From contig KZ538178.1 in the NCBI GenBank assembly GCA_000934665.2, positions 62,001-108,404 on the forward strand: 46,404 nt of DNA. Reading direction: 5' to 3'. Below, piece by piece: positions 11,995-32,166 of the stretch. The stretch comes from Catajapyx aquilonaris. Lineage: Eukaryota. A program made the translations under genes and the position numbers. Positions within the stretch are counted from its first letter, which is position 1, and every line of letters begins with the position of its first letter. The notes beneath the pieces were generated by a model, which ran no database searches, was not told the origin of the DNA, and worked only from the letters and a program-made list of their open reading frames with translations.

Positions 11995-14006
11995 TCAGCT
12001 CTGCTTCTTCTTCTGCTGCATGAAACGACCAACAACAGCGGCCACAGTCTCTCGCTCTGACAAGTACACTGTCGCCAGCACCACCGAGAAGGTGCCTCCT
12101 CCTATCAGCAGATGAATCGCTGCAGACTCGGGGTATATTGCCACCTGCAAGAAGCCGTTGTTAATATTATTGCAATAATGTTGTCTGCGGAGTGAGTGCA
12201 CCCACCTCTGATAGATGGTTGACGATTGCTGCAATGAGCAGTGAAGCCAGGACGGGTTTAGTTGGCACCACTCCAGTCCACGGCTGGAACTCTGTTCCCT
12301 GGAAGTGCTGGCGCATGTAGACAATGCCATGCGATATCCTGGCCAACATGTTGCAGCAGTTGGCTAGGACGAACCCCAGGCTGCCACACACCCGCGTCAG
12401 CAGCCAGGAGAGGAGCAGGAAAAGGGCAGACAGCACCACCATCAGCCGGTTGTGCCTGCAGCAATCAAACGTGAGTCACGCATGCCCTTTGGACGCAGCT
12501 CACACTGCCACAGTCACCACCTACCTGTTGAGCTGCGCTTGGCTCATGCAGGCAAACACGTAGGCCTCAGTGACCCCATTGAGCGCCAGGAAGAGGACGC
12601 AGAGGCACTGGGCTCGCAGCAATGACGGGCCCTCCCCCTGAGCCCAGGAGGGTCCCCCGTACAGGCGCAACAATAGGTGGGAGTAGGAGTGGCCAAACAC
12701 AACAAAGATCAGGCCAGTCACGCTCATGAAGCGGAGTAGAGACTTGAGGATGACAGACACTTGGGACACATCGTTCTAGGCAGAGAGGCGACAATCATGT
12801 TACTTGTGTGATATATCATATCTGGGATGCCAGGATTAGTTTTAAATATGTTTATTAAACTTTTAAATTCTGCTGACCTGGTCATGCTGAGGCAAGGGTT
12901 TGTCCCTCTGGACCATCTGTGCAAAATAGTAGTATGCAGAGTCCTCCACTGGGAGGAAGACAAAGCGGACGACCATTGAGGAGAGGTTGGCGACCACGTC
13001 GTACGTCCCCTGTTGCAGGAAGGTCAGCAGGTCAAAGATTGTCATCACGTATCTCTCTCCTTCAGTCAGCAGCTGCTTGAGTAGACCCTGCTTGAAGAAG
13101 CTCCAGGTCAGGGCACACAGGGTGGGGTTGAGCCAGCGACCCTCGGGACCTCTCCTTGGAAGGAAGTCCGCTACAGACTTGAATGGAAACGGGTCGCCCT
13201 CGTCTGACTTTTTGACTGCTTCTCCTCGTTTGCGTATGAACCACCAGAAGTACACGTAGTAGGATAGAGTGTACATGGTAGCTGCCAGTACGTGGCCAAT
13301 TCCGTACGCAAGCACGGCTGTACGCGGACTAACCACGGCAGCCACACAGAGGCTGAGCGCTCGGACCAATATGTAGGCAGTGTTGATGAGGACCTGGAGC
13401 TTGACGAAGAAGAAGGCCTGTGCGGCAATGTTGGCAGGGGCGGCAACCATTTCAATAACGCAGGAGGCTCCGATGGCCACCACCCCGTACACGTAATGCG
13501 ACGTCACCTCCTCCTCCGGCTGGACCAGCAGGTGGGTCCAGGCAAATCCAAACAGCAGGCTGCATATGATGCTGTTTGGCACGCTGTAATAAGAGTGGAG
13601 CATAATAAGCAGGGTGGTTGGACGAGGCCGCCTTCCCCTACTGCCAGCAAGACCCCTTACACGATCCAGACGAGGTTGAGCACGTGCGTCCACTGGCTGC
13701 GATCGCTGGCCTTGGCGCTCCCCAGGCAGGCCCTCCTGAAGGCCTCCCTGCTGACGAAGAGGACGGTGGAGTAGAGGAGGGTCAGCCGCACGTTGATCAC
13801 CCCGAGCACCTCCGGGCTCACGTAGCGGATGGTGAACGCATTCAGCAGGAAGGTCAGCACCCGGCTGCCAATCTGCAAAACCATTTATTATTGCAATGAG
13901 CACATGGCAATAGAGAGAGAGAGTTGTTGTGTTAAGCAATGACCTGGTATATGATGTTGTACGATGCGGTCTTGACGCTCCCTGCCAGCAGCTCCGTGGA
14001 CTTCAT
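11995..14006 (-). CDS. RFT1: RFT1 Man5GlcNAc2-PP-dolichol translocation protein, 543 aa; exons 14006-13944, 13872-13661, 13583-12878, 12775-12525, 12455-12206, 12144-11995
   Basis: Signature motifs SRVLTFLLNAF...NVRLTLLYSTVLFVSREAFRRACL, FFKQGLLKQLLTEGERYVMT, QGTYDVVANLSSMVVRFVFLPVEDS and LALNGVTEAYVFA; multi-pass hydrophobic protein; total spliced length divisible by 3. Confidence 0.96.
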
Positions 14007-14454
14007 CTTGGGCTCTCGTCTGCTGCACGGGAAGGAAGGAAGAGTTGTTGTCTTCTTCACATCAGCACCAAGCAGGCCCCTAATTTCGTCACATTTCAGT
14101 ATTTTTTTCCCAGCTTCTTTTTGCCAAAATTTTCATTTCCTGCAGCAGCTGCTGCAGTGATTTCAATTGCGGCGCAGGCGCACTAGAAACAGTGCACGGC
14201 AATTGTGCTGCAGATTGCACCCCCTGTATTGTCCAGGCGGTGAGCCATGCAATTTAAGCCGGACGAGTAATTAAAAACCGGGTGGCCATGCATGCCCCCC
14301 CATGTGTCGTCTGCAGTGGGATGCACACGCATGCGCCTTGACACGCACGTGACGTTGCAATCCCCATGTTCGTTGACATGGGGACGGTCCGTTCCGCGGT
14401 CCGTTCCTTTCCGCCCAGAGCCAGAAGGAACGTCGGACTGATTCATCATCTTCC

Positions 14455-14482
14455 TGATGATGATGATGATGATGATGATGAT
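14455..14482. repeat. (GAT)n microsatellite in the RFT1/GK5 divergent promoter interval
   Basis: About 9 tandem TGA/GAT units. Confidence 0.9.
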
Positions 14483-14692
14483 ACTGCGGAAGGAGGAAGG
14501 GGACATCACCCAGTGAGCACAACTGGGGCACTGCCACTCGCACCAGCAGGGAAACACACACAGGGAGGCAGGCAGGCAGGCAGCAGAAGTGGGCACTGCC
14601 CAGCAGCCAGTAGAGGTGAGGAGGAGGAGTGGACCATCAGGCAGCACATCATTGTTCCAGGGTGTTCTACTCCTGAAGAAGTGTTCTGAAGG

Positions 14693-17103
14693 ATGGGACG
14701 GACTGAGGAAGGCGACGGAGGGGTTCAGCCTGGGAAGGGCCTCCTCAGGGAAGGCGGAGGAGGGGACGACACCCCAGCCAGGTACGTGGCCTCCCTGGAC
14801 GTGGGGACCACCACCGTCCGCTGCCACGTGTACGACCAACACCTGAGGATCAAGGGAGCTGCGTACGCCAAGGTTGGTAGCCACACAAAATATATGGCAA
14901 GAGAAAAAAAACGGATGTACATGCTTGCAAATTGTGTTCCAGGTTGAATTGCTTCATCCGCAGCCTGGATGGGTTGAGATTGAGCCAGAGTCTCTGTGGG
15001 AGACGGTGCTGGAAGTCATCAACGGGGCAATCAAGAGTGAGTTTTCAGTCATTGCTTGGGGGAAGGTTTTGCTCAAGCCGTTGGTTCTGGTTCAGATGGA
15101 GGTCTCCGCGCTGGTGATGTCACCTGCCTGGGGATATCCACCCAGCGGTGCTCATTCATAACCTGGAACCACGAGAGCGGGAAGTACTACCACAACCTGA
15201 TTGCCTGGAGTGACATGAGGGCAGACTCCCTGGTCAACCGCTGGAACAGCTCCGTCACTCTGAGAGGCCTCCGCTTTGGTGCCAAACTGCTTCACATGGT
15301 CACACAGCAGAAGAGGTTCCTCGTCGCCTCCGTGTTGAGGCTCATGAACCCACAGGTGTGTGTGCAAGGCGTTCCATCCGAGTCGTCATCTTGCCTCCCA
15401 CCATTCATGCTCTTCTAGGTGCTGTCCCGCCTTTTGTGGGCCCTCGACAACGTTCCCAACCTTCGCCCTGATGCCGAGCAAGGGCTGGTTCGCTTCGGCA
15501 CCCTCGACACTTGGCTGATCCACCGCCTGACTGGTGGGGAGCTCCACGTGACCGACTTCAGCAATGCGTCCGCCACGGCCCTATTCGATCCATTCCTGAT
15601 GCAGTGGAGCCAGCTGGCTTGGAAGGTCTTTGGTGTCCCTCTAGCCATGCTGCCAGAGGTCAGGGATTCCGCTGGAGATTTTGGCACATGTAAGACCAGC
15701 CTCTTCGGAGCACCCTTGCCCATCAAGGCTCTGGTGAGTTTGAGCTCTTCACTGAGAAAGTAACAATCTTATTAGCTACTTACAGTGTGATACTTCCTGT
15801 TGCTGTGCATTATGCAATGGATTGTAAAGAAACAGAATGGTTCACTAGTGTTTTCGCTTCTACTGGTAACAGTCTGGGTTACATTCCATTGTTGAAGTTC
15901 ACTGGGTCAAGTGGTTTTCCCTGCCGAAACAGGTGGCGGACCAGTCTGCATCAATGTTTGGATCATGCTGCTTTGATAAAGGAGATGTGAAGATCACCCT
16001 TGGGACTGGCACCTTTCTGAACGTAAACACTGGCAGAGAGCCACATGCATCGGTCAAAGGTCAGTGGGTGGAGGAGTTCACCAGCTGACTTGAGACGCTC
16101 TGTTGTTCTTCAGGTCTTTACCCAGTGGTTGGATGGAAAATAAGGGATGAGGTGGCCTACCTGGCAGAGGGAGCCTCCAATGACACTGGATCACTGATTG
16201 AATGGGCGCAATCAATTGGTGAGTTAGGGCTGATTGCGCAGTACTTGCTGTGACTAACACCATGTGACTAATAACACGCAACACTGTGTGTGACACAGGC
16301 TTGTTTAAGAAGGCGGAGGAGACCTCTGACCTGGCCCAGTCTGTTCCCGACTCGGGAGGAGTCTGCTTCGTGCCTGCCTTCAGCGGACTGCAGGTGTGGC
16401 AGTCTCTCTTTGCTTACCTCGGGTCCTTCTTTAACACTTCTTTGAGTACATTAATTCTATTAACTGGCACATTACATGGATCCCCAGCCGTGGCATTGTT
16501 CATGCTCAGGATGATGCATTTGGCAGTAGCTTGCTTATGACTATGAACACATTTCCTACCTTCTCTGTGCCTTTTGCAGGCCCCGTACAACGACATGTGC
16601 GCATCTGCCGGCTTGATAGGAGTGACTCGATCAAGCGGTAAGGAGGTTCTGGTGCGCTCCCTGCTGGAGAGCATTGCCTTCCGGGCAGCCCAGCTTTACC
16701 AGGTCATGCTCAGCGAGGCCTCCTTCCACTTCTCTCCCGTCATTCGCACTGACGGCGGGGTTTCTGCCAATGACTTTGTGGCACAGCTGATGTCCAACCT
16801 AACCAACCAGAGGGTGGAGAGGTCAGCCAGCACTGAAATGACCTCTGCAGGGGCTGCGCTCATGGCAGGAATGGAAGGAGGTGAGGTAGTCACTGGAGTA
16901 GTCACTTCCGCTATTCTGACGTGATTTATTGGCCATCAGGTGTGTGGGCTTCCAAAGAGGAGCTTGCAAAGCTTCGCAGGAAAGGGAAGCACTTTGATCC
17001 AAAGCTGGACCAGCAGAAGCTCAGCAGGTCAGCCATGGCCCACTGGGAGAAAGCTGTCAGGAGATTCCTCCAGTGGCACAATAATGAAAATAACACTCAA
17101 TAA
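14693..17103 (+). CDS. GK5: Glycerol kinase 5 (FGGY family), 546 aa; exons 14693-14872, 14943-15036, 15096-15355, 15419-15733, 15933-16059, 16114-16218, 16299-16393, 16580-16880, 16940-17103
   Basis: Motifs LDVGTTTVRC, GISTQRCSFITW, FGTLDTWL, TDFSNASAT, VADQSASMFGSCCF..GDVKITLGTGTFL, FVPAFSGLQAP and DGGVSANDFV. All junctions are GT-AG and in phase. Confidence 0.94.
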
Positions 17104-17691
17104 CTTAGCAAACCATTCCAGGCATGTCAAAGTGCCTGCATTTACTTGCATAGCATACTGCTTAGGATGACGTCTTCTATATTTAAAAAAAAAAAGATTA
17201 GTTTTTACCGGGAAGTCTACCCCCGTATGTTGCACGTGTACAGTTGCAATACTCTAAAGCCAAAGGGAAGGTTGAAGAGCACATGGTGTGTAACAATTCG
17301 GATATTATTATATCACAGAAATTCTGCCTGTACGCGTCTGGATTGCCGCATCACCTCAGAAGCTAGTGTGTGTGGCCAGTACTACGTGAGGAAGGTTAGT
17401 TTTCTGGTGCTCAAGCAGATTATAACGACATTGATATTATATGCAAGTAAATGAAGTAGAATTCCTGCTCTTGCCATTCCGGTGCTTAGGCTCTGACATA
17501 ATCAAACTAACGCACTTCTATTTTTATATTTCTTGAGATATCGTGCCTTATATTTTCCTGGCAGTATGAAAGTGAAGTCCACGAGAGGTTGTATACTTTT
17601 ATACCAGAAGTTGCTGTCACATGGTTGTACTAGGTTGTACCCAAGTATTTTTGGTATTGTTATGTTGTTTCCATTGTTCTAGTTGTTGAAA

Positions 17692-18043
17692 AGCACTCGT
17701 ACTGGACTCGTGGAGATTGGCATGAAACTGGAACAATAGGTGCATCATAGGCTGTGAATTCACTGGTTTGTGATGCCCAGTCCTTTTCATATTATAGGCA
17801 AAAATATATTAGCATAATTAGTAAAAGATATTAATCAATTGCTATTATTATATGCTGTATATTCCATGTCACACGCCTGTTATTCACTTCTCAGGCCTTA
17901 CACATGTATGTGAAGGTCACTAATACAATTTTGCTCGCTTTTAAAGTGGCTGGCTGACATAGCTCCTACCAGTGAATTATCAGCCTACGATATGCCTGGC
18001 GTGCCAGTTTCATGCGAATCTGTGCGAGTCCAGTTCTTGTGCT
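17692..18043. repeat. Degenerate inverted repeat (about 90-bp arms), likely an old foldback/transposon remnant
   Basis: 17692-17782 (ACTGGACTCGTGGAGATTGGCATGAAACTGG...TAGGCTGTGAATTCACTGGT) matches the reverse complement of 17952-18043 with scattered mismatches. Confidence 0.65.
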
Positions 18044-18947
18044 CTCCTTGTTAGCAATATGTGAAGTTCCTGGTTGTAATTCGGCAGGGTGAGTTGCTCA
18101 GTTAACCAGGGGAGGCCCTTCGAGCCGTGGAGGAACTTGGACAATTTAATTCTAATTGCTTGAATTATGTGGGGCTTACGAATCATGTTGAGTCTGTTTG
18201 TTACTCTACTAGAGACAGTCTCACATGTTGCAAGTGACCCAGTTGCATGTTAGTGCTTGTTGATTTCCATGTTGAGCATTAGGACGCAACTAATTCTTGG
18301 CAACAGCCTTGTCATGCAGGTTACCTCCTCAATGCTTGAGGCATTTTGCAATTACTTTGAGAATCCTTAGGTAATTAGTATAATGTGATTAATAGTGCTC
18401 AGTGATTAATTTGCGATTGAAGACCATTGCGTCACTGCTTGGTCCACAGTGAAGGCAAACGTGAAGTCCTTCCCTAGGTGCGAAATTCATTGAAGCAGGT
18501 CCCAGGTGCAGGGAAACATATCCACTGAGTTTATTTTTCCCTCTTACATTATTTTGTCGAGTCACAAATCTGCGGCTAACATTCCTTGGCATTTCTTGTT
18601 TCACCTTCGAGAGTTTATTTTCTTACCTTTGTTTTCAATTTCTCTTGTTCATGACCCTACTTGTACAATAAGCTACATTTGTTGTGGTGGAATAAAATAT
18701 ATCTTTGTTGGGAAGTCTGCTTTCCATCTGAGTGTGTGCCATTGGGGTTCCAAAATGTTGCAGATTGAGTGAAGCAGCTTTTCATGTTATTTCAACAGCC
18801 AAGAAACGATGTGGTAAGCATACATCACTGTAAAAAAATCTCACACATACTGTACGTATACGACCACCTTCCTCAGTGCTCCATTCTCATTGTTCAATCT
18901 TAAAAGTAGCAATCCATTTCATTATTAATTTTGTTCATTTTTCAGAT

Positions 18948-19695
18948 TTAGCTCAGTAAACCTTCAGAGGGTAGCCTCCTCTTTGCAAGCCACTCTCTAA
19001 GGTCCGAGTTGCCATTTTCTTCAACAATGGTTCGTAATGACCTGCCCCTGTCATCTCGAGTTGTGCTGTCAGCCCCATGATCCGCCAGCCATTGCACCGT
19101 GTGGCTTTTGCCAGCTACGGCTGCCAAAATTAGCAAAGAGTTTCCTGCTTTGTCCTTTGCATTAACATCACCTCCGACACTCACCAGTGATTTCACAAAT
19201 GGCCAGAGGCCCTTTTGAGCCGCTTTGATTAATGCGTTGTCAGGAATAAGTGCACCCATCCGCCGAGTGCTGAGCTGGCCTGGATTCTCATGCTCTTGGA
19301 CCAGCAAGAGCAGCTCTTCTTCATCCATTTCATCAGAGTAGTCATCGCTGGGTGTTGTTGATGGCAACCCTTGAATGTCGGCGGCGCATAACCATGCCAC
19401 TACTGCCTGGAAAGAGGGGTAGGCACACAGGGATTGTCATGTCAAGTTATTAGGAAACGCTATAATTTCACCATTGATTATTATTATTTAAACGCCAGAA
19501 GGTATTCTTTTCGGCTTTTAATTTGGCGCGTCTTCTGGGAGAGCTTAATTCAGCAGGGTTGATTTTTGGTAGCCTTCTTCTACATGGAATGATTTGATTA
19601 GCATTTCCCTGCGCCAGTAACACAGGCATATTTAAAATATATTGTTTTGATAGCAATGTCCTTACCAGCAGATGAAACCAAGCTGCTTCCATCAT
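18948..19695 (-). CDS. Secreted small ankyrin-repeat protein, paralog 1, 162 aa; exons 19695-19666, 19406-18948
   Basis: Spliced N-terminus MMEAAWFHLL|AVVAWLCAADIQG (signal-like), acidic DDYSDEMDEEE segment, RR, then ankyrin repeats (LIKAAQKG..FVKSLVSVGGDVNAKDKAGNSLLILAA...WLADHGAD). Confidence 0.85.
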
Positions 19696-21544
19696 GAGAC
19701 TCGGAGCTGTAGTTTTCTGTGAGAAATGACACACGACGCAGCAGCTGTATTCTCTGTGGTGTGCCTGACACAGTAATTGACTACGTGCTATTCATAAGAT
19801 ACAATGTTTCCATGAGATTCATTTTTTTTAAACACACCTGTTCTTTTTTCTTATCAGGAGAAATGAACTTGAACAGCAGGAGATGTTTCAATACACAGAC
19901 ATGGAAGTGGCAGCCTCTACCAACTTCACCAGTGAGGACAACCAAAAAAAAAAAAAAAAAGGGTATTGCGCTAGAATATTAAAAGTTATCGCTCTACTAC
20001 GTCTTGCACAGACGTCACAACACCCACCCAAGCTTCCTTTTGTGTTACTAATAGACTAAACAGTGATTTGTGAATCACTTTGTAAGATATAATCTAACAA
20101 TTCATATTGGTGGAATCCACAGTATGTAATCGCTTTTATGCTTTATTGTTTGGACTTTAGAGATTGCTCTTTTATGAGGTGCTGGCAGCGGAGCCTGTTT
20201 TTCTCACAGCCTGTTTCCATGGTGATCACCGACAAAATCCCGTTGCCATGGGCTGACAAAAAAACAAAAACAAAATGAAGCTTTGCCTCATAAGTAGATT
20301 TTGAAAAAAAAAAAAAAGAAGTTATTAATTAATTTCATAGCAGCAAACCCCCTATTGTTGTTTCCAAGAATAGCAGGAGTGTTGCGAGTGGCAGCGTTGT
20401 GGTTAGGTTTCCAACTTGTTCTGAAAGAGTCTCTGAAAAATGACAACATGTGTGAATATTGCAAACAGTAATAATTTGCGAGAAATGGTTTGTTTGTTTG
20501 AGTACACACAGCCATTATGGTTTGTCCAGTTCGCCCAAACTTATCCGCTGCTCCTGGTTTTTAAATCTAGCAGCCTTACAAGATATTTACTTCAGCTTGT
20601 TTAAGTTTGCTGAGCAATATATCTGGCGTGACCACTTTATTCCTTCAGCAGGGGAAGCAGACGTCTGTCCCTGGCCGAAACCAATAGCAACATAAAACAT
20701 ACACATAATTCACAAGCAACCCTACATTGGGCGCCATCCTTGGTACTGGCATGCTTTTTAAGGGACTGCGACTTCATTTCCTGAAACTGGAGCATGCGTC
20801 TCGGGCATCATTTTTGTAAAGGGGAGACGAATGTCAGATGAACCTACATTTCCTGCACTCTTTTTATACTGTCCGAGTTCAGTATTTCATCATGAAGGTG
20901 GGGCAGGAGTTCCGCACATTGTCTTAATTTCTGAATATGATGCATTTCAATGCACTTGTCACACCAAGTCACACCAATTAAAAGTTATATTAATTTTAAA
21001 ACGAGTGTTTTTGTAGTATAATTGAAATACATGACTCAATTGAGTTTCTAGCTTCAGTGGAATCAGGTGGGCTGTGTTGGTAATGGTTGGGGAGACTGTT
21101 TGATCACTGTGTGGCAGAACATGACATGGAGGAAGGGGCAGAGGGGTTTGGCTGACCAGGATGAGCTGGAAAGCCAAGACATAAAGTTGTTAATGTAACA
21201 TCTCAGGTGCATGTGCTTCCAGGGGTACTACATTGTGCGCAGGGAATGATGACTCTCCCTCCAGCACTCATGCCAAGACGTTCTGGAGGTGCACTACTGA
21301 TCAAATAATTTGGCCCTGATTCTATATCTCGTTAGTTTCATAATATTCACGATGAGTACTGTACAGTTTGGCCTGAAAGGAGGTGACTGATAGTTGAATG
21401 AACCAACATTATTATGCCAAAAGAAAATGGCATGTTACGAACAGTTCCACGTGCGCACCTGCAGTCTGCCAAAGCCTCATCTGCCTGTGTGAAGTGTTGA
21501 ACGATATTTCCGTTTTTGTACACAGCGTCACCCATTTTTCAAAT

Positions 21545-22244
21545 TTAGCCAATCCTCCTCCCAGCAAACCAAGTCAGAAGGTCTCTGTCACCATTGGCAG
21601 TTATAATGCTCCTTAATGTCCTGCCTCGGTTGTCTCTTTTTGAGGTATCAGCCCCTCGATCCACCAGCCATTTCACCATGAAGTTTTGGCGAGTTAAGGC
21701 TGACAGAATTAGTATGGAGTTTCCATCACTGTCCTTGGCGTTGATGTTGGCCCCAAGATTCACCAGTGATTTCACAAATGGCCAGAAACCCCTTTTAGCA
21801 GCTTTGATTATTTCACGATCAGGAATTGCGTGACCAAACCGCCTGCCGAGAGTTCCATCGCTATACTGATCCATGTGCGCCACAATGCGGACCAAGTCTT
21901 CATCCAACTCTGAATAGTCTTCATTGAGCAAGGGTGTATGAGGCTCCTCCCTGTGAGCGTCTGCACCCAACCACACCATTATTGCCTGGAAAGAGTAGTT
22001 GGCACATGCACATTAGAATGCCTTAACTTCAGTCGAGTCCCATCAGCCTCGGACCACCCTGCACATTGGAATGCCAGAGTCACCAACTTCTTCGCATTAA
22101 TTGAAATATTTTTTTGTTGCTGATTGATACATTCAAGTTGTATGTAGGAGAATGTGATTTTTCGTAATTTAATATATGTTTTTTTTACATAATATTGCAA
22201 TATGTCCATACCAAGATGTAGAAACTGCACCATGCTGCTTTCAT
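21545..22244 (-). CDS. Secreted small ankyrin-repeat protein, paralog 2, 157 aa; exons 22244-22212, 21985-21545
   Basis: MKAAWCSFYIL|AIMVWLGADA signal-like N-terminus with AxA end, acidic EDYSELDED segment, RR, then ankyrin repeats (IIKAAKRG..FVKSLVNLGANINAKDSDGNSILILSA...WLVDRGAD). Confidence 0.87.
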
Positions 22245-24988
22245 CCCGAGACTTGGCGATTTCGTTTCCTGCAGAAAATGACACAAGACACAGTTGTTGT
22301 TCTTTGTGGTGATGTCACAAAAAGTATTGCAATAAAATGCTTTCATCCAATTAACTTTTGTCATCAGAACACTTTTTTCTTACCAGGAGAGCTGATGGAC
22401 TTGGAGTTTCAAAGTCCAGCGTGGACCAAAAGAGTTGGCTGAATGGATCGAGAGGATTGGATGCTGCCCTCTCAACGCGCAGAATGCACCACTTCACCTT
22501 GAGGATGACTCCACAGAGTACACATCACGGAAGATAATCGTTGCTTGATCCCATTGCTGCAGCATGTGCAGATGACAAGTGCATCCAGGCTGATGCGTAC
22601 TTTTCCCATACACTGAACGATGATAGGTAACAAGTTTACAAGATATCGAGTTTAACAATGCATGCTGATTTCGGCCATAATAATTTAGTGCATTATTGTT
22701 CAGAGAACGTCCAATGATTTTTATGAGTCATAAAAGTAAATAATGCTCGACACGAACTGAGTATTTAGTTTAACGAGAGAAATGTAGATAACCTGAGCAA
22801 CCTACAGACAAAAGGTGCATATATTGTTGGTGAATATTGTTATTGGGAGAATGTGGGCATTGATGTGCCTACTGTTGTAAAGGACCAGAAGAACACTGTT
22901 TCTTTTTCGAGGATCTCGGAATTTTATTTTTTTGGGAGGTCAAAGGAAAAATAGGGAATTTTGGCTTTTCTTTTTCTTTCTTTCTTTATTTTTTATTATT
23001 TTGAAAACATGAATTTTTACCATCATTGAACATAAAGGAATAATTGTTTCAATTTTTAACAAGTGTGGTTTAACCAGTGACAAAAAGTGTTTTCATTTTC
23101 AGCCTTTCATTTGTGTTACAGGCCAAATTAATTGGTTTTGTACTCTGGGCCTCAGGATAATGTTTTCACTTTCATGTTGAATCGTTTTTATCCAAGCCCT
23201 CATACACTGCATTATTGTGTGTGCCTGCTGACTGCTTGGTCTATGACTCCGTTACTGAATTCTGCAGTTATTTACTGTGCGAAGTTTGGGTCTTGGAATA
23301 TGCTGTACTGGTATCGTTTACGGATCCCCTTTTGTAATGTGTCGTCAGTATAATGCCCTCATAATCATTTATTCAAAGATTATTACTAGTGAGCAATGAC
23401 ATGAGACGGATTTTAAGAAAAATATCAAACTACAGTTTAGCTGTATTCATTTACCAATCATTTCATTATACATGCATAGCTAAGGTCACATCTCAATTGA
23501 TCCAACTTTACTATGATGATAAAATAGATTCCTAGACAGTAAACTTGAGAGGAATGGTTCGAATAAGTTGATGGAAACTAGAGAAGGGAATCACACATCT
23601 TCAGTTCAATGATTTGAAATTTCCTTAGTTTAAAAAAGTGTTGCACATTTAGATGCATCACGTGCATTATTGTAGTGTGTAAGAAATAAAAGTACAAGGC
23701 AAGGGCAATTATTCCACCAAATACCAATCCAATGGTATGAACCTTACTGAAACCTGATCTACAGCCCCTGCACTTTATAAAAAAGTGACACCAGGCACAC
23801 TGGATGGAAGGAAGCAATGTTGAACCGAAGTGTGTACTCGTCATCTGACAGTACTTCCCAACAGATTGTTGTTGTGGTTTGCAGGCCCCACCAGCTGGCA
23901 TCACACCAGAATGGCTTTAGTCGCCAGCCATGCAGCAGTTGAGATGCCTCATCAGAGGGGCGTGAATCTCCACTGCTGCTGGTTTCTAATGGGCATTTTT
24001 GCTCCCAAGTTCAGCACCAGTTCCCACTGCTGTTCACCACTGACTTCAAATGGCCTCTCAAATCAGAATCCGCGGGATTCTTGACATCAATAAGGACTAC
24101 AAAGGGGACTGCTTCTCTAAGGACTTGTGATGAATTAATGGGACAATTATTATTGTTATCAGGGAAGCGTGTATAATGATTCTAAAAGGTTTCACATGGG
24201 TTTGGAAACATCATCTGTGTGTCTATGCATGCAATTCTTTATCTGACATTAGAATTAAATACATAAGTAGCAGTCAAGTCAATTTTAATAACTCTCTGAA
24301 TCTTTTATACAAGATTATTCTTAATCTCGTACACAGTTTCTAAAGTGTAACATATTATGCAGTATACTTAGGTCTACCTAGTTATAAAATTGTTAATCAA
24401 CTGAGGATATTTACAGAAAGTAGTGCAATAGTATCAAATAAAAAACCATGCGTGGTCCTAGCATATTATTGTGCATTTTTTGCCAATAAGTACTCTGAGT
24501 AGGTGATTTCCAAACTCTAAGTACCAATTACAGTTATCATTAGCATCCATTAATTACAACAACAACAACAACAACAGACATGATTTCTCCCTTTCTTTAG
24601 CATGTTAAATCACCTAATAATGGCCATCATTTTAAAAACCCTTGCTGCTAAGATGAAGAAGGAAAAAAGGGTGCATGTGTTACAGATCCCACAACTATAG
24701 TTAGTGATGAATGTGTTAGGTACAGTGTTATTGATTGTTAGGATTGTGAACACAGTCGCTTGTTCCCCACTCCTGGTTCACCTCCCTTGTACGAGTCTGT
24801 CCAATGGCGGCAAGCTACAATAAAGCACAGTTAACCCTAGATATGTATAGATTACCGAAAGAATGTTCAATTTTTAATAACCTGTGCGAACCTATGTCAC
24901 CTGGTGTAACATGCGGATTTAGACTTAAATCCCAGATAATGAGTCTCAATAAGTGACAACCTCCTTGAAGTTGTCAAATCCACCCAGG

Positions 24989-24989
<1 letters not shown>

Positions 24990-25021
<32 letters not shown>
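24990..25021. repeat. (TA)n microsatellite
   Basis: About 16 TA units just downstream of ankyrin paralog 3. Confidence 0.95.
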
Positions 25022-25022
<1 letters not shown>

Positions 25023-25074
25023 CTGGACTGACTCCTCCTCCACACTGATGGTTAACTGGATGAGTTTTTCTTTC

Positions 25075-25813
25075 TTATGCGCCACTTAACCGAGGAATGA
25101 TCCCACCTGTGTGAGTCTTCCAGTTATCAACAGTCCTTGCAAGGACTAGGGACCCATTGTCCTTGAGAATGTCAGATACTGTCCTGCCCTTTTCATCCTG
25201 AGATGAGCTATTAGCACCACGTTCCAGCAGCCATTTCACCAAGGCATTTTGCTGATTGAGAGCGGCAAGTATTACTACAGTCCTCCCCAACTTGTCCTTG
25301 GCGTTGATGTTACCCCCCATGTTAATCATGCCTTTCACAACCGGCCACAGGCTCTTGTCAATGGCTCTGATCAAATCCCGATCAGAAACGAATCCTCCGC
25401 CCAATAACCGACTCTCAAGCATGTCAGTTACTCCATGCTCTTCAAAGTCATGGTCATCCATCCATCCAGATGAGTGGTCCTCCTCCTTGGATGAATAAGC
25501 CATTGCCAGGTGTGGAGTGTCAACGCACAAACACACAAGGCAAATCTGAAAGGAAGTGGCATGCACAGAATACCATTATTGGAATCCACCAAAATCAGGA
25601 AGGTCTCCAGCAGTTTCATCACATGGGTATTATTAGCAATGATTCCCTCTTGGTAATAACGTTGCATTATGAACCGTTATTATAATTTTTTGGCTGATGA
25701 TGTTACATAATGAACGCAGCATAATATATATAATTATATATATTGACCTGAGAGGTTCATCATACCAGGAGGTGCAATCTGCAGTGCAGTAGGTAATATC
25801 TACATTCTTCCAT
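25075..25813 (-). CDS. Secreted small ankyrin-repeat protein, paralog 3, 172 aa; exons 25813-25766, 25545-25075
   Basis: MEECRYYLLHCRLHLL|ICLVCLCVDTPHLAMA (signal-like, AxA end), acidic segment, ESR, then ankyrin repeats (LIRAIDKSLWPVVKGMINMGGNINAKDKLGRTVVILAA...WLLERGAN). Same phase-0 intron position as paralogs 1 and 2. Confidence 0.8.
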
Positions 25814-26482
25814 GCTGTGACGACGAGGGGCCCCTCGCTCCTGCTGAAACGTACCAAGTGCACTCTTATAAATCCTTGCTGCTGAAGGACTGCACCCAAA
25901 TATAGCAGGCTGCCGCTTCCCCTCCTGCGAGTAAATGTCCCCCTCTGCATACGATTGGCCATGACAATGCATAGTAAATGCACCCGACATGTGATAGTGC
26001 AGCTGCATTATTTTATTGCATCCCATTATTGTATACTTGATTATGGATTGTAATCTGCCTGCCAGTATGTTGCTCAGCCTGTAAAGATGCACGACCCGGA
26101 TGAACGCAGTTGTTGTTGCAGTGCGAAGATTGCCAGCTTCGAATTTTCTTCAATGAGACAACAATACAGTTGGAAGGAATAATAATTCTTATTCTCGAAG
26201 GAATTATTATTGATTTGAAAGTAAGTAAGCCGCTACCTGCAAACGTAATATCAGCTACGCGACGTTCGACCCCCTCCCCCTCCCTCCTCTTTTCCAGCTG
26301 GCAACACTGCTTCTCTTTTCCAAGATGGCGGCCTTCTGATCCTCCTCCTTCTTTTTTTTTTTCAAAAAGGCGGCAAACGGTCTCCTCTGGGCATAATAAT
26401 TATTGTTGTCGTGGCTTGTAATAATTGAGCTCCTCTGTTGTTGCTGGGGTGGCCGGATAACAACAGTGCGGTCCGTCGTCCG

Positions 26483-28325
26483 ATGGGAGACAGGCGCAGG
26501 GTGTGGCACGGGCTGGACGGGGATGAGGCCCCTCAACCCAGGACGCCCTTATTGCCGACCAAGTCCATCCCGCCCGTAACGATGACGATTGCAACAATAA
26601 TAACAATCTCTCCATTTAACAATGGAATGTGGAAAGGGCATTTGTTTATTCGCCTTTGCTCATTTTTCCAGCCCCCGAGACCAGCCGTCCCAGAGCTGTC
26701 CCTGGTGCTGGACGGACTGGGCGACGGGTATCGCCACTGCGCTCCGGACAATGATGAGGGGGTCTACAGGCGGGGCTTGGCGGCACCAGCAGAGGAGGAG
26801 GACTGTGCAGCTGGCCCTCGGGAGAGGTACAGCACAGCATGCAACAACACCATGCAGGGCCACCATATGTCCGATGCTAACATGCCTTCCACCCAGGTAC
26901 TGTTCCCAGGCGTCTGGCCCCTGCGGCTGCTTCGTCCCAACGCAGGAGATGATGAGCGAGCAGAAGATGCACCTGGAGGTGATCCAGAGGCAGATCCATC
27001 AGCTGCTGGCCCAGCAGGCGCTCCTTACCAGCAGCACTGCAGCCAGCAGGCAGGAGAAGGAGAAGGAGGAGGTGGTGAGGAGGAGGAGAGAGGACAGGGC
27101 CACCCAGACCAGTCCTCCTCCGAGGATGGTGGACGGCTGGACCCAGGGGGAAGGGGAGGCTGCGGAGCACTGCCAGTGTTGCCGCCACGCCACCAGCCCC
27201 CCTTCCAGCCACGCCCCGGAAGAGGACGACCTGAGCATCAACCTGCAGGGGCTGCAGCTGCCTACCATGCACGAGCAGCAGTGCAGTCCTCCCGTCTCCT
27301 CCATCCAGGTGGACATGAGGGATTTCCAGCACTCTCTGGACAGGTGGGTGGTTGCGCTTTTTATGGGTCCACCACTGCTGGTTACTCACTTTGTCTCTCC
27401 GCAGTGCAAGCGGACTGGGACACTCTACGTCCAATTCCTCGTCAGAGTGGGACAGCCCTAGACTCGGAGATGGTTTTAGTTCCTACGTCAACAATGACCG
27501 TGGCTGCTGCTCCGGTGGCTGCAACCATCAGCAGGGACAGCAGGAGAGCGAACAACCAGGGCTCTGGACAGTGTGCCACAATGTCATGGTCAGTTACCGC
27601 CAACTTCCTTATTAGCCTCACAACTGGCATTTCTGCTCATGTCTGGTTGATTCCTGCAGAACCATGTCCAGAAGTTTCTGGACCAAGACAGCGCAGCACC
27701 TAGTAATGAAGATGACATGTACGAGAACGTTCTGGCGGGAATAGCTCATCCTGGCAGTGGTGCTGGTGGTGTGGTCGTGGCTGAGCAGCAAGAGAGTGCC
27801 AAGAACGGTTGGGGTAAAGGTCCTCCGCTGCAATGCCAGAAACCTCCCGTTCCCCCTGAGAAGCCGATGCCTCGATCCCCAGACAGCATAGGAAAGACGA
27901 CCCGCATGAGAGCGCTGGCTGGGGTCAGCTTTGCGGACCAGCAACTGCCCCAGAAGGCGGACTTCAACTCGATCTACGTCCCTCGCCTGAACTACATGTC
28001 CCTGTACCCCGAGTCAGAGTGCAGCATGGAGATCAACGCCCTGGCCATGAAGTACCTGAACAAGAGGGACGCACCTCCTGCACCGTCCTATCCACCAGCA
28101 GCAGGCGGCAGGGGAGTGAGGGCAACCATGACCACCACGACCAGCAGGGTGGAGCAGAGGGTGATGATCCAGGGTGGGACGGGAACAAGCAAGGAGCAGC
28201 AGGGCAGGATGGGTGGCGGCGGTGGGGCTGGGGAAGTGACCTTGTACGGCATGTCAGCAACCAACCTGTCCTACACCACCAGGAAGTACCTCCACAAGTA
28301 CAGGCTGGCCAAGGAGGAACATTGA
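26483..28325 (+). CDS. STIL: STIL/Ana2/SAS-5 centriole duplication protein, short form, about 514 aa; exons 26483-26575, 26672-26826, 26897-27343, 27405-27588, 27660-28325
   Basis: CR2-like PRTPLLP...PAVPELSLVLDG, central coiled coil EQKMHLEVIQRQIHQLLAQQ, STAN motif VPRLNYMSLYPESECSMEINALAMKYL and C-terminal TIM-like NLSYTTRKYLHKYRL; AATAAA at 28411. Confidence 0.88.
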
Positions 28326-28817
28326 TGCCACGGTTGTGCTTTTTTTAAACCTTTTTTAAAAACGTTTGTATTGAACTGTTGTACGAGTGCATTGTATTGT
28401 GCGATTTTTAAATAAAAAGGCTGTTTTTGCATTTACGACAAATAAGCGAGAGGCATTTTGTGTGGCCATGAACAGATAGCAGCTGATGTCACGTTGAGTC
28501 TACAGGTGGCGCCACATTGGCGCCGTCTCCTCCAGAGGGTCGTGACCTTCCGACTTCCGAGTAAAATTCCCTGCCTGATTAGATTGGCAGGGCTCCAAGT
28601 TATGACCGTACTCTGAGAGAAAGAGGTTGAGACAGGAAATAGGAGGATGAAAACAGCGTCGTAAACTAACCGCGCGGCTCAGATAACATCCCTCACCACC
28701 ATTGAGGACGTCGTACCCACCAGACTGGCAATGATGAGTCAGACGCCAGGCATTTCAGATCACGTGCTGAAAAGAGTTGGACTTTCAGCAGCTCAGAGTC
28801 TCAAAGTGTGAAACCTG

Positions 28818-31800
28818 ATGCAGCCTGAGGCTTGCTGGGGAACAAACAACAAAGATCAGCAGCCTTTGCTGTTGGACTCCACCCACGCACCACATAACAT
28901 TCCTCCAGAGTCTCCTTTGTGTGCGTGGCATTGCATCAGCCTCCTGCCAACAGGACCACTGGTGTACCGCTCATCAAGGTAGCCTACACTGTGCAAACAA
29001 TGATCCCCAACAGATATACTTGTGCCAAATGAAAGTTTCTTACCAGCATGTGTTGGAATATTTTCAGGATGAGGGCCGTGCGGGGAGGTGCTTCACAAGA
29101 GGAGGCTGATGAAGACAGCGATGATGACAACAACGCATCTGACGGAGCCACGGTGAAGCCAAGCGCTGCCGCAGCAGACTACTGCAGCAACCTTGCTGAT
29201 CTGGTGAGTGACCTGTCGATAGACTGCCCGCTGTTCAACGATGGAAGGCGCGATGGGGTAGAACACGTCCTAGAATCAGGCTGGGAGGAGGAGAGGAGCG
29301 GTGCATGTCCATTCAATGCGGAGAGAGCTCATGGTAGCTGCGCACTGGACTGCAGTCAAGCTGCAAGTAAGCAAATAGCATCCAAGTGCGATTATCCCGC
29401 TGATCTGTTGGAGCATGAAAAGGATGCACATAGCAATAATCTCAAAGATTGCTGGGATTACAAGACGGTTGATGGCCACTGTCGGTCATCATGGAACAGT
29501 TTGCGTCCAGCACAGTCGCAGATGGAACAAGCAAAGAGGAGCGAGCTGCTGCGACTTGAGCCAAAGTCGTTCACCCGGAACATTGGGCCCAATATCGCTC
29601 TGGGAATGAAGCCGTGCTCTGCAGAGACAGAGACCAGCAGTGATGGTTCTGACTCGGACGATTCCATCCTGGAGAGAGGTCTTGCCACCAAGAGCAAGTC
29701 TAACGGGAACAAGTCCGCACCGTACACCAAGCAGAGTCTCCGGAGGGAAGCTGCCCATGTAATTATTTCAGTTCAGAGGTCAGTATAGTTGCACTCAGAC
29801 TGTACACTGTGATAATTCTTCCAGGGTGCGGTGCACCATGCTGCTGATGCCGTGGTCCAGAGCAGCGAACTGCATCTGGTGTGTGTGACTGACAATGTAC
29901 GCATGCTACTCATGGTGTGAGCATGCGTTCCTGTAGCGTAACATTTTCGATTTTCAGGATTATCTCGCGTGGCCAGCAAGCGGAGTCCTAGCACCCGCAC
30001 CAAACATGCCCCGTCAGAGAAACAGTTCGTCTCTGTCCAGCAACGATCCGTCCCTGCCTTCGACCAGCAGCAGTGCTTCCACCCCGTCTCCCCAGAGTTG
30101 GCCATTATCTTCAGACCCGTCGTTGAGCTCAGGCAGCCCACCGGGTGAGGACTTCTCCAGCCGGAACAGTCCATCGACTTCGGACAACGAGAGGGAGAAC
30201 AGCCTTGATGAGTGGGAGAATTTAGAAGACATTTTAAATCAGAGTAGCGGCCAGCCACTGGGAGACGACTTCATAGAATTGAAGAACAGGTTGATCCAGG
30301 GTGGGGAGGCGGTTTTGAACAACATGACCAGCAGCCACTCTGGGGACACTCAGGTGTTGCCTGTCCCGGATCATATGGCTGGGTGCATCCTCCCGGACAC
30401 TTATTACTCGCATGCCTCCCCACCTCCCCAACCTCTTCAACATATCAGTCCAGTCGTGGTGTATCAGACACCTTCTGCAGTGCTGCTGCCGGTCAACATC
30501 ACCGTCCCCGCACCCAGACTGATTTTGCCGAAGCCAGAACAAAGTCCGGTCAGACCCCGTCCCGTCCAACAGCAGTCGGCAACACATCGCGTCCTTCTGA
30601 GATTGGATGAGGACAAAAAGGGAGCGTGGCACGACGAAATAATGAGGAAGGATGTGCACGACCTGAAGAAGCTCGACAAGGAACAGAACAATGAGTGAGT
30701 CAATAGCTGGTGGCAACATGCATTCTTCACACTTATTGGTTGTCGTTCTTTTTCCAGGCTGCTGAACCAAGCCATAACAGATACTAGTACTAACCTGGAA
30801 CGTCTTTTCGAGTTGGTGGAGAGGCTTGTTCATCTGGGTTTGGCAGAAGTATTTACCAGGGAAAATGCCCAGGGAAATGTATGTGCTATAGTCAATAAGT
30901 GGAGGTTGAGTGTTCCTCGTCTGATGGACATTCCGTTACGCAGATTGCGCTGGAAGTGGCTGCCTATGAGAATAAGGATTTGGTTGTTGGGTACGTGGCC
31001 GAAGCTATGGTGCGAGTCGGAGCGGAGAAGTCTATCAACAGGAAGGTAGGGAATTATTTTGTACGAGAAGTTGGGCATGGGAAACGCATCCTTTTACTCT
31101 GTCATGGAATCTGACACCGCATTTATTTTAATTTGATGAACTCGACTCTCTTTTGATAGGTTGATGGGGATGGGAATACCCTTATTCACATTTTATGTGA
31201 ATGGGGCGACGAATATGCAGATGTTGTCAGTGCACTGCTACAAGTTGTTGGTGCCGAAGGGAACCTCGTCTTCGATGTCAACATAAGGAACTACTCTGAT
31301 GGTAAGATATTTTTCTAATATTTCTGAACTGTTTGCAGGCAAAGTAGTGAGAGAGAGATTTGATTTAATATTTCAGCAGGCATGACTCCATTGCACATTC
31401 TGGCTCGAGCTAGAAATGAGAACGACAGGGGTGTGAAGATGCTGGGAGTGCTGTTGGACCATGGTGCTGATCAGCTTCGCCAGGTATGGAGAGATGATGC
31501 CACATGTCCCTTCAATTATTTCCACGCAACGTATCTGCCAACGTGATCGCCGATCTCTATTATTCTTCCCAGGACCTGAGCGGTGGAAGGATTCCGCTGG
31601 TCTTTGCAATTGAGACCAAGAACTGGCCACTGGTGTGGAAGATGGTGCTGCTGGAAGGAAACCCCACTGCTCTTCTCTCCGTGAAAGACTACCAGGAATG
31701 CACTGCATTGCACCACGCCAGTCAGGTTAAGGGGGTGGATGGCGATGTGTACCAATCCGTCCTTCAATTCCTCATGGATCACAACGCTGATCCGGTGGCT

Positions 31801-31960
31801 CAAGCCATGCACAACATACTGCCAAAAACACTGGCGTCTGCGAGTCATAAGAAAGTAAGTTGGTGCGCAACTGCCTGGCATGCATATGACCACTACGCTA
31901 CTACCTTTTCTGTTGCAGATATTTGAACGAGCCAAGGGGCTGCGCAAAAAGTCCAAGTGA
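28818..31960 (+). CDS. IkB-like ankyrin-repeat protein (atypical/nuclear IkB type), up to 811 aa; exons 28818-28978 (tentative), 29068-29758, 29825-29878, 29958-30694, 30758-30878, 30944-31045, 31160-31301, 31380-31483, 31573-31854, 31919-31960
   Basis: Long Ser/Pro/acidic disordered N-terminus followed by about 6 ankyrin repeats (GNIALEVAA, DGNTLIHIL, NYSDGMTPLHIL, DLSGGRIPLVFAIE, DYQECTALHHA) and a basic tail RAKGLRKKSK. Exon phases are all consistent; the start codon is uncertain (28818 or 29069). Confidence 0.75.
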
Positions 31961-32124
31961 AAAGGTCCAGTTCTGTTCACGGATTGTTCCAAGTGAGGAT
32001 CAGTCTTAATGCGCTGGACCAAGCAGCATGATATTATTTTTATATTTGGTCACGGAAGTATGCATTTTATTTACCCAGATACTGTCGAGTAATGACTTGA
32101 TTGATCAGTTCGAGAGATTAAGAA

Positions 32125-32166
32125 TATCACCTTAGGTCAAAGGTTAACCTTTGACCTAAGGTGATA
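32125..32166. repeat. Perfect 42-bp palindrome
   Basis: TATCACCTTAGGTCAAAGGTT|AACCTTTGACCTAAGGTGATA, no spacer. Confidence 0.95.

What the first reader, a model, noticed from the sequence alone, without database searches (positions are those of the whole stretch)
18948..25813. Tandem trio of secreted mini-ankyrin prepro-proteins: candidate novel toxin/effector or extracellular binder family
Seen: three same-strand paralogs whose ORF-track N-termini are wrong. Each has a small upstream coding exon (10, 11 and 16 codons, phase-0 intron at the same position) that completes a hydrophobic signal peptide (MMEAAWFHLLAVVAWLCAADIQG; MKAAWCSFYILAIMVWLGADA; MEECRYYLLHCRLHLLICLVCLCVDTPHLAMA). About 3 ankyrin repeats follow, with no other domain and no transmembrane segment or KDEL. 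Known: animal ankyrin-repeat proteins are almost all cytosolic or nuclear; secreted examples are mainly venom toxins (latrotoxins) and microbial or parasite effectors. Inference: a lineage-specific, duplicated family of secreted natural DARPin-like binders (venom, saliva, immune, symbiosis or seminal role), inserted among housekeeping genes.
Basis: partly seen in the sequence, partly recalled or inferred. Interest (0 to 1): 0.88.

Follow-up and report, generated by a model that had tools for sequence, protein, structure and literature searches.

The report
Three tandem signal-peptide mini-ankyrin genes
An animal genome, probably an arthropod's, carries three neighbouring genes for very small three-repeat ankyrin proteins that start with what looks like a secretion signal, which is unusual for animal ankyrin proteins, but secretion and function are still untested.

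Summary
Three minus-strand paralogs (162, 157 and 172 aa) each have a first coding exon of 10, 11 or 16 codons. It is joined through a phase-0 GT..AG intron (259, 226, 220 nt) at the same aligned place inside a hydrophobic N-terminal stretch. A spliced transcript contig confirms the gene-1 junction to the base. The junctions of genes 2 and 3 were not displayed.

Each protein has a signal-peptide-like N-terminus, a disordered acidic tail of about 35 residues, and a confidently folded three-repeat ankyrin domain that matches minimal designed ankyrins. The parts after the predicted cleavage sites hold 0 Cys in 415 residues; the leaders hold 7 in 76.

No orthologue was found among 5.8 billion proteins, although a control showed that animal proteomes are included. 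None was found in metagenome contigs either.

The host is probably a poorly sampled pancrustacean. Secretion is inferred from sequence features only; SignalP was not available. A toxin or effector role has no support.

A precedent exists: 20 predicted secretory ankyrin proteins in stink-bug salivary glands (PMC8207144). Verdict: a real, expressed gene family and a new variant of a known kind, of moderate interest.

The parts
19666..19695 (-). gene 1, coding part of exon 1 (10 codons; first half of the hydrophobic leader)
   Evidence: Sequence read and translated. The junction to exon 2 is confirmed by the spliced contig. An in-frame stop at 19794..19792 rules out any N-terminal extension.
19407..19665 (-). 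gene 1 intron, 259 nt, phase 0, GT..AG
   Evidence: One search lists the joint 19405>19665 'skips 259, CT..AC (cut +1)'.
18948..19406 (-). gene 1, coding part of exon 2 (152 codons plus stop): rest of the leader, acidic tail, ankyrin domain
   Evidence: Pfam Ank_2 35.7 bits against a cut-off of 27.3.
18969..19250 (-). gene 1 ankyrin domain (residues 53-146 of the exon-2 translation), three repeats
   Evidence: AlphaFold block pLDDT 76-93 with six helices. Foldseek match to 2xen: TM 0.78 normalised by the target, rmsd 2.3 over 87 columns, 41% identity.
17546..18947 (-). gene 1 3' untranslated region (about 1.4 kb)
   Evidence: The same contig as the coding part, record 3, runs on to 17546.
19696..19938 (-). 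transcribed 5' flank of gene 1, with four short upstream ORFs; the true start site is unknown
   Evidence: The contig has 273 further nt beyond the junction. Upstream ATGs are listed. The contig stops at the A17 run 19944-19960, so this is not a mapped transcript start.
22212..22244 (-). gene 2, coding part of exon 1 (11 codons)
   Evidence: This exon plus about 65 nt upstream is 74% identical over 85 nt to the same part of gene 1.
21986..22211 (-). gene 2 intron, 226 nt, phase 0, GT..AG
   Evidence: Its joint was not among the rows shown.
21545..21985 (-). gene 2, coding part of exon 2 (146 codons plus stop); ankyrin domain at about 21557-21829 by alignment with gene 1
   Evidence: Pfam Ank_2 30.7 bits against 27.3.
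25766..25813 (-). gene 3, coding part of exon 1 (16 codons)
   Evidence: There is no upstream ATG within 87 nt.
25546..25765 (-). gene 3 intron, 220 nt, phase 0, GT..AG
   Evidence: Not confirmed by RNA.
25075..25545 (-). gene 3, coding part of exon 2 (156 codons plus stop)
   Evidence: Pfam Ank scores 21.1 bits, equal to its cut-off; Ank_2 scores 26.1, below 27.3.
25114..25392 (-). gene 3 ankyrin domain (residues 52-144 of the exon-2 translation), three repeats
   Evidence: AlphaFold block pLDDT 86-95 with six helices.
25863..25870 (-). TATAAGAG, a possible TATA box about 50 nt upstream of the gene 3 start codon
   Evidence: Read directly. The promoter role is inferred, not tested.

Best explanation
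These are three real, anciently duplicated genes of an animal, probably a pancrustacean arthropod. Each encodes a small protein that enters the secretory pathway.

Proposed steps (all inferred unless marked):
1. A cleavable N-terminal signal peptide, split by a conserved phase-0 intron, directs the protein into the ER.
2. After cleavage, about 136-140 residues remain: a disordered, strongly acidic tail of about 35 residues (net -8 to -9) with a Tyr embedded in Asp/Glu, then a basic three-repeat ankyrin domain (net +3 to +10). The domain is built as N-cap, one internal repeat and C-cap, as in the smallest designed ankyrin binders.
3. The ankyrin groove binds a protein target outside the cell or in a secretory compartment. 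The acidic tail acts either as a second binding element (possibly sulfated) or as a charge mask on the basic domain.
4. The three copies keep the scaffold and differ on the hairpin and first-helix face, so they probably bind different targets.

Shown here: gene structure, transcription of all three loci, splicing of gene 1, the fold, and the failure to find close relatives. Inferred: entry into the ER, cleavage, secretion, and binding.
For: Gene models: three intact ORFs with canonical splice sites and an identical intron position. The gene-1 junction is confirmed by a spliced contig.

Leader anatomy:
- The uncharged hydrophobic cores are about 16, 17 and 12 residues long (my count). This is shorter than a membrane span.
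- Kyte-Doolittle 11-residue means peak at 2.2, 2.2 and 2.9, then fall below -1.
- Each core is followed by small residues at -3/-1 (A-x-A in genes 2 and 3).
- The region after the core is strongly acidic, which favours translocation of the C-terminal side.

Composition: 0 Cys in 415 residues after the predicted cleavage sites, against 7 Cys in the 76 leader residues. The chance of zero is 0.015 at a 1% background, the rate seen in the generic ankyrin hits and in the neighbours' ORFs, and 0.002 at 1.5%. Free cysteines are typically avoided in secreted proteins (established knowledge).

Fold:
- Pfam finds only ankyrin families.
- AlphaFold gives block pLDDT 76-95 for residues about 52-146, with six helices, in the two paralogs modelled. 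The first about 51 residues are below 50.
- The best structural matches are DARPins and consensus three-repeat ankyrins: 2xen TM 0.78 and 2zgg TM 0.80, both normalised by the target.
- A profile of the three also hits DARPins first in the PDB.

Constraint: Nei-Gojobori dN/dS over the ankyrin part is 0.304/0.689, 0.554/1.02 and 0.495/0.776. All are below 1 but high, as expected for a fast-evolving functional family.

The invariant residues are scaffold positions, including a family-specific WP[FV]VK motif.
Against: - No signal-peptide predictor could be run, so the call rests on my inspection.
- The n-region of gene 1 has no positive charge. His and Cys residues interrupt the cores of genes 1 and 3.
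- Transcript start sites are unknown. If gene 2 or gene 3 started further upstream, in-frame ATGs in the ORFs could bury the hydrophobic stretch inside a longer N-terminus. For gene 1 this is excluded by an in-frame stop.
- The gene-1 contig carries four upstream ATGs if its long 5' flank is a true UTR.
- The junctions of genes 2 and 3 were not confirmed by RNA.
- N-glycosylation sequons occur only in gene 3.
- dS is near saturation, so the dN/dS values are rough.
- There is no tissue, proteomic or orthologue evidence, and no target is known.
Confidence: 0.6

Rival explanations
1. The hydrophobic N-terminus is an uncleaved signal anchor, or the proteins are otherwise kept in the ER, Golgi or secretory granules. 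The ankyrin domain then faces the lumen and acts inside the secretory pathway, for example as a chaperone or cargo adaptor, and is not released.
For: The leader features and charge asymmetry are the same as for secretion. The gene-3 leader is long (32 residues), and its hydrophobic part together with the preceding Tyr/Leu-rich stretch approaches span length.
Against: The hydrophobic cores of 12-17 residues are short for a membrane span. Small -3/-1 residues follow each core. There is no KDEL/HDEL-type C-terminus and no second hydrophobic segment.
Confidence: 0.15
2. The proteins are ordinary cytosolic ankyrin adaptors. The hydrophobic N-terminus is either an anchor to the cytosolic face of an organelle or has no targeting role.
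For: Nearly all animal ankyrin proteins are cytosolic or nuclear (established knowledge). No predictor or experiment supports secretion here. The n-region of gene 1 lacks a positive charge.
Against: All three diverged paralogs keep a hydrophobic core plus small -3/-1 residues, although sequence identity in this part is low. The flank after the core is acidic, unlike the basic flanks of N-terminal mitochondrial outer-membrane anchors (recalled). There is no Cys after the predicted cleavage sites.
Confidence: 0.12
3. The genes are a recent horizontal acquisition of a bacterial (symbiont-type) ankyrin gene that gained a signal-peptide exon.
For: The best database hits are unnamed metagenome or bacterial ankyrin proteins. 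NCBIfam gives sub-threshold matches to bacterial ankyrin effector models. GC3 of 0.49-0.53 is lower than the neighbours' 0.62-0.70. The authors of PMC8207144 suggest such transfers for stink-bug ankyrins (passages).
Against: The hits are generic: 25-56% identity over 18-82% of the query, ankyrin part only. None of the 5 sequences I read and none of the 80 loci carries the family motif or the acidic tail. The NCBIfam scores of 14-35 bits lie far below the cut-offs of 50-1400. The genes have spliceosomal introns and sit between animal genes. The three copies are already 30-43% diverged. Near-consensus ankyrin repeats match everything.
Confidence: 0.04
4. The proteins are prepro-proteins. Convertases cut at dibasic sites on both sides of the ankyrin domain and release it from the acidic pro-piece. 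This is a sub-variant of the secretion model.
For: Genes 1 and 2 have RR just before the folded domain and (K)RR just after its last helix. The pro-piece is anionic and the domain cationic.
Against: Gene 3 lacks both sites. About two dibasic pairs are expected by chance in a protein of this size and composition (my estimate), and gene 2 has two more inside the domain.
Confidence: 0.15

Closest known systems
Designed ankyrin repeat proteins of minimal size (N-cap + one internal repeat + C-cap; PDB 2xen) and consensus three-repeat ankyrins (2zgg, 2zgd)
   Same: The fold and size of the structured part match. 2xen: TM 0.78 normalised by the target, rmsd 2.3 over 87 columns, 41% identity. 2zgg: TM 0.80. 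In the profile search of the PDB, most of the 60 rows shown are DARPins or other designed ankyrins.
   Different: Those are engineered, cytoplasmically expressed proteins. The window's proteins are natural, carry a signal-peptide-like leader and a 35-residue acidic tail, have lost the TPLH-type histidine of the internal repeat (recalled consensus), and carry a family-specific WP[FV]VK motif.
Predicted secretory ankyrin proteins of the Halyomorpha halys salivary gland (OrthoMCL group 2, 20 proteins; PMC8207144, passages read)
   Same: They are animal (arthropod) proteins with an N-terminal signal peptide, no transmembrane segment and ankyrin repeats, and they form a multi-copy family of unknown function.
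   Different: Their sequences and sizes were not available to me. The term 'ankyrin' did not occur in the two supplementary files held, and I did not see Table S3. No sequence relation was tested. Tissue expression is unknown for the window's genes.
Latrotoxins of widow spiders
   Same: They are animal proteins with ankyrin repeats that act outside the producing cell.
   Different: Latrotoxins are over 1000 residues long, with about 20 repeats and an N-terminal pore-forming part (recalled; I saw only titles and abstracts). The proteins here are 157-172 residues with three repeats and no other domain.
Secreted or translocated ankyrin effectors of microbes (Legionella/Coxiella Ank proteins, oomycete secreted ankyrins)
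   Same: They use ankyrin repeats as exported binding modules. The phrase searches found 'secreted ankyrin' wording almost only for microbes.
   Different: They are exported by type IV systems or belong to other kingdoms. NCBIfam matches to the effector models score 14-24 bits against cut-offs of 500-1400, so this family is not a member.
Tandem exported mini-ankyrin paralogs of a Dependentiae bacterium (earlier finding e1-3763181)
   Same: Three tandem, diverged genes encode small signal-peptide ankyrin-like proteins.
   Different: That genome is bacterial, with a bacterial signal peptide and no introns. No sequence relation was tested.

Membership tests
Ankyrin repeat superfamily (Pfam Ank_2 PF12796 / Ank PF00023) | A Pfam ankyrin model scores at or above its gathering score | tested here: met
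   Ank_2 scores 35.7 and 30.7 bits (cut-off 27.3) for genes 1 and 2. For gene 3, Ank scores 21.1, equal to its cut-off, and Ank_2 scores 26.1, just below.
Ankyrin repeat superfamily (Pfam Ank_2 PF12796 / Ank PF00023) | Stacked helix-turn-helix pairs joined by beta-hairpin loops | tested here: met
   Both AlphaFold models have six helices in three pairs, with block pLDDT 76-95. Foldseek probability is 1.00 to ankyrin structures.
Eukaryotic cleavable Sec-type signal peptide | Short n-region, uncharged hydrophobic core of about 7-17 residues, polar c-region with small residues at -3 and -1 | tested here: met
   By inspection of the spliced N-termini and their hydropathy profile. This is not a trained predictor.
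Eukaryotic cleavable Sec-type signal peptide | Positive call by a trained predictor (SignalP, DeepLoc) | not testable with these tools
Eukaryotic cleavable Sec-type signal peptide | Experimental cleavage and translocation | not testable with these tools
   Needs expression and N-terminal sequencing.
Minimal DARPin-like architecture (N-cap, one internal repeat, C-cap) | Three-repeat ankyrin domain of about 90 residues that superposes on N1C-type structures | tested here: met
   2xen: TM 0.78 normalised by the target, rmsd 2.3 over 87 of its 91 residues. This shows what the domain is built like, not descent.
Latrotoxin family | More than 1000 residues, an N-terminal helical/pore domain and about 20 ankyrin repeats (recalled) | tested here: not met
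   The proteins are 157-172 residues with three repeats and no other domain.
Bacterial Dot/Icm ankyrin effectors (NCBIfam AnkY, AnkH, AnkF, AnkG, AnkX) | Score at or above the curated equivalog cut-off | tested here: not met
   14-24 bits against cut-offs of 500-1400.
Halyomorpha halys salivary secretory ankyrin group | Sequence similarity beyond the generic repeat, and salivary-gland expression | not tested
The two supplementary files held did not contain the term 'ankyrin'. The tissue of run X1 is unknown.

The most novel reading that the evidence does not exclude
An arthropod lineage has evolved its own family of secreted natural mini-DARPins. These would be three-repeat ankyrin binders exported by a classical signal peptide. 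They would carry a sulfotyrosine-type acidic tail and act outside the cell as diversified neutralising or ligand-trapping proteins in immunity, feeding secretions or reproduction. That would be a third natural extracellular repeat-protein binder system, beside antibodies and the leucine-rich-repeat receptors of jawless fish.
Probability: 0.25. Interest if true: 0.75.

Novelty: new variant of a known kind. Interest (0 to 1): 0.5.

Why it matters
Ankyrin repeats are the scaffold of engineered DARPin binders, but in animals they work almost entirely inside the cell. A natural family of minimal, cysteine-free, signal-peptide-bearing ankyrin proteins would have several consequences:
- It would show that evolution has used this scaffold extracellularly in animals.
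- It would give natural examples of the smallest stable ankyrin module.
- It would point to unknown extracellular targets in a poorly sampled arthropod lineage.

If the leaders prove not to be signal peptides, the finding reduces to an ordinary lineage-specific ankyrin duplication.

Tried and rejected
- **Profile search of 1.84 billion representatives with the three-paralog alignment.** It gave 204,281 hits at E <= 0.001. The 150 listed are multi-repeat ankyrin proteins of 676-5901 residues, so the result says nothing about orthologues.
- **The search for homologous proteins with gene 1 alone.** 0 of 85 candidates reached E <= 0.001.
- **The same tool with the alignment.** 264 of 2633 candidates reached E <= 0.01. 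All 120 listed are generic ankyrin proteins covering 18-82% of the query. I read 5 of them and none has the tail or the family motif. The 'longer' and 'shorter' length classes were not searched for the trio, so fused gene models could have been missed.
- **Metagenome contig scan.** 433 pattern matches gave 179 relatives, of which 80 were kept. Of these 80, 0 carry WP[FV]VK and 77 matched only through the generic hairpin pattern.
- **Whole-genome search.** No genome is held for this window.
- **Earlier findings of the scan.** Nothing exists for this genome or sequence.
- **ESM Atlas.** It returned only generic bacterial ankyrin clusters.
- **Sequencing runs.** No RNA holder is listed as such. 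The one run of unrecorded kind (X1) was laid. Its rows for the gene-2 and gene-3 junctions were not displayed, and the uncovered stretches (22338-23671, 25673-26339) say nothing either way.
- **Origin of the trio from the ankyrin exon of the right-hand neighbour (31498-31926).** Pairwise BLASTP gave only E = 0.012 and 29% identity over 77 residues, which is no more than generic repeat likeness. Rejected as unsupported.
- **Rfam and tRNA scans of the window.** Nothing found.
- **Literature phrase searches.** No described animal family with this architecture turned up apart from the stink-bug group. The ctenophore paper only lists latrotoxin-like BLAST hits.
- **Complex prediction.** Not used, because no specific partner is claimed.
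Full report
**What is there**

The stop-to-stop ORF list shows three minus-strand ORFs at 18948-19436, 21545-22012 and 25075-25575. Each begins, without an ATG, in the middle of a hydrophobic stretch.

Reading the minus strand shows the same arrangement for each gene. An upstream ATG opens 10, 11 or 16 codons that end at a GT donor. An intron of 259, 226 or 220 nt ends in a pyrimidine tract and AG, exactly at the start of the hydrophobic continuation. Joining the exons by coordinates gives proteins of 162, 157 and 172 residues. All three introns are phase 0 and fall at the same aligned position in the hydrophobic core. tblastn with the three proteins finds only these three copies in the 46-kb window.

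**Independent support from RNA**

No whole genome is held for this window. One public run of unrecorded kind holds 34% of the sampled words of 18800-26200. Laid on 13000-32999, its contigs skip introns. All 15 joints listed, of 24 found, have GT..AG or CT..AC ends in the neighbouring genes, so the run behaves as RNA.

One 2133-nt contig covers 17546-19405, skips 259 nt and continues at 19666. This is the predicted gene-1 intron to the base. The same contig shows a 3' UTR of about 1.4 kb and 273 nt upstream of the junction.

Those two junctions therefore rest on sequence and on homology with gene 1.

Start sites are unknown, because the contig ends at an A17 run.
- Gene 1: an in-frame stop at 19794-19792 excludes a longer N-terminus. 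Four short upstream ORFs lie in the transcribed flank.
- Genes 2 and 3: there is no ATG within about 90 nt upstream. In-frame ATGs further upstream could matter only if transcription starts well upstream.
- Gene 3 has a TATAAGAG about 50 nt before its ATG, which suggests a short leader. This is inference.

**The proteins**

Pfam finds only ankyrin families, at the same place in all three. NCBIfam gives only far-sub-threshold ankyrin matches. The paralogs are 43% and 30% identical to gene 1. The invariant residues are scaffold positions plus a family-specific WP[FV]VK motif.

AlphaFold models of gene 1 and of gene 3, the most divergent copy, agree. Residues about 52-146 of the exon-2 translation form six helices, that is three repeats, with block pLDDT of 76-95. 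The first about 51 residues and the last few are below 50.

Foldseek matches DARPins and consensus three-repeat ankyrins. The best fit by target coverage is to minimal constructs: 2xen TM 0.78, rmsd 2.3 over 87 columns, 41% identity; 2zgg TM 0.80. A sequence profile also hits DARPins first in the PDB. The structured part is therefore an N-cap, one internal repeat and a C-cap.

**Is it secreted?**

This is inferred, not shown.

For:
- The uncharged hydrophobic cores of about 16, 17 and 12 residues (my count) are shorter than a membrane span.
- Each core is followed by small residues at -3/-1, and by A-x-A in genes 2 and 3.
- The following 35 residues are strongly acidic (net -8 to -9), which favours translocation of the C-terminal side.
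- There is no later hydrophobic segment and no KDEL-type end.
- After the predicted cleavage sites there are 0 Cys in 415 residues, against 7 Cys in the 76 leader residues. The chance of zero is 0.015 at the 1% background measured in the generic ankyrin hits and in the neighbours' ORFs, and 0.002 at 1.5%.
- All three paralogs keep these features although this region is the most diverged.

Against:
- No trained predictor was available.
- The n-region of gene 1 has no positive charge.
- His and Cys interrupt some of the cores.
- Sequons occur only in gene 3.

**Other features**

The acidic tail holds a Tyr flanked by Asp/Glu in genes 1 and 2, a classical context for tyrosine sulfation (established knowledge; untested here). 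The ankyrin part is basic, net +3, +10 and +5.

Dibasic sites bracket the domain in genes 1 and 2 but not in gene 3. The 'prepro' reading is therefore weak.

Within the internal repeat, the paralogs differ mostly at the hairpin and first-helix positions. These correspond to the randomised surface of DARPins; that correspondence is recalled, was checked by eye, and rests on only three sequences.

Nei-Gojobori dN/dS over the ankyrin part is 0.44, 0.54 and 0.64 for the three pairs. All are below 1 but high, and dS is near saturation.

**Relatives and host**

- Gene 1 alone found nothing among 85 word-sharing candidates.
- The three-paralog profile found 264 hits among 2633 candidates. All 120 listed are generic ankyrin proteins covering 18-82% of the query. 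The 5 I read lack the tail and the motif.
- A control with the neighbouring RFT1 exon returned 78 hits, including many NCBI and UniRef animal proteomes. The collection therefore does hold animals and the blank has some weight. It is limited by the word index and by the length class searched.
- The RFT1 hits reach only 46% identity (cockroach, leafhopper).
- A quick tree of the window plus 40 of the 78 hits puts the window with a cladoceran and insects (10-row set, SH-aLRT 90), outside the 8-row insect clade (99). The host is thus probably a pancrustacean from a poorly sampled lineage. This is a weak placement from 239 residues.
- A metagenome scan kept 80 loci. None carries WP[FV]VK, and 77 matched only the generic hairpin pattern.
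- The large profile search was swamped by giant ankyrin proteins and says nothing about orthologues.

**Surroundings**

To the left lie MED26 (+), RFT1 (-) and an FGGY-type sugar kinase (+). To the right lies a multi-exon + strand gene with one ankyrin-like exon. That exon resembles the trio no more than any ankyrin does: E = 0.012.

The trio's GC3 (0.49-0.53) is lower than the neighbours' (0.62-0.70). No RNA family or tRNA lies in the window.

**Comparison with what is known**

Phrase searches for secreted, secretory or extracellular ankyrin returned microbial and oomycete papers and one latrotoxin review. Venom-gland searches returned latrotoxin work (listing only).

One animal precedent exists. 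The salivary-gland secretome of the stink bug Halyomorpha halys contains a group of 20 proteins with a signal peptide, no transmembrane domain and ankyrin repeats. Their function is unknown, and the authors note that such proteins are scarcely reported (PMC8207144, passages). Its Table S3 was not seen; 'ankyrin' did not occur in the two supplementary files held.

The window's family is not a latrotoxin, because size and repeat number fail. It is not a bacterial effector family either, because the scores lie far below the cut-offs.

**Verdict**

This is a real, transcribed, tandemly duplicated family of minimal ankyrin proteins with signal-peptide-like leaders, and no detectable orthologue in the searches possible.

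I put about 0.6 on entry into the secretory pathway with release, and about 0.15 on lumenal or membrane retention. Any toxin or effector role is speculation. I class the family as a new variant of a known kind, of moderate interest. SignalP on the spliced proteins and one secretion assay would settle the main question.

Noticed in passing
window 26429-32000 (+ strand): A multi-exon gene with very short introns (61-114 nt, 10 joints shown). Pfam finds no family in its large exons, apart from a weak ankyrin-like match in exon 31498-31926 (Ank_2 E = 0.0017, below the cut-off). Its identity is unknown.
   Followed up: partly
window 13000-14340: The RNA contig over RFT1 differs from the assembly at 8 single bases and has two small insertions behind 14197 and 14241. 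The trio contig shows no differences. The sequenced individual is probably polymorphic relative to the assembly.
   Followed up: no
window 19677-19761 vs 22229-22311: The 5' flank plus exon 1 of genes 1 and 2 is 74% identical over 85 nt, as well kept as the coding part. It includes a shared block upstream of the ATG that ends in a TCATTT-like element. This may be a shared promoter or initiator.
   Followed up: partly
window 24990-25021: A (TA)16 microsatellite lies about 55 nt downstream of the gene-3 stop codon.
   Followed up: no
window 5733-5743 and 35809: Assembly gaps: 11 N and 1 N.
   Followed up: no
window 43727-44140 (+): An open frame rich in Thr, Pro and Trp-Pro-Thr-Glu repeats, which looks mucin-like. 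It has no Pfam family.
   Followed up: no
window 7898-9732 (+): The MED26 homologue has long His-, Pro-, Ser- and Gly-rich low-complexity inserts between the TFIIS-like N-domain and the Med26_C match.
   Followed up: no
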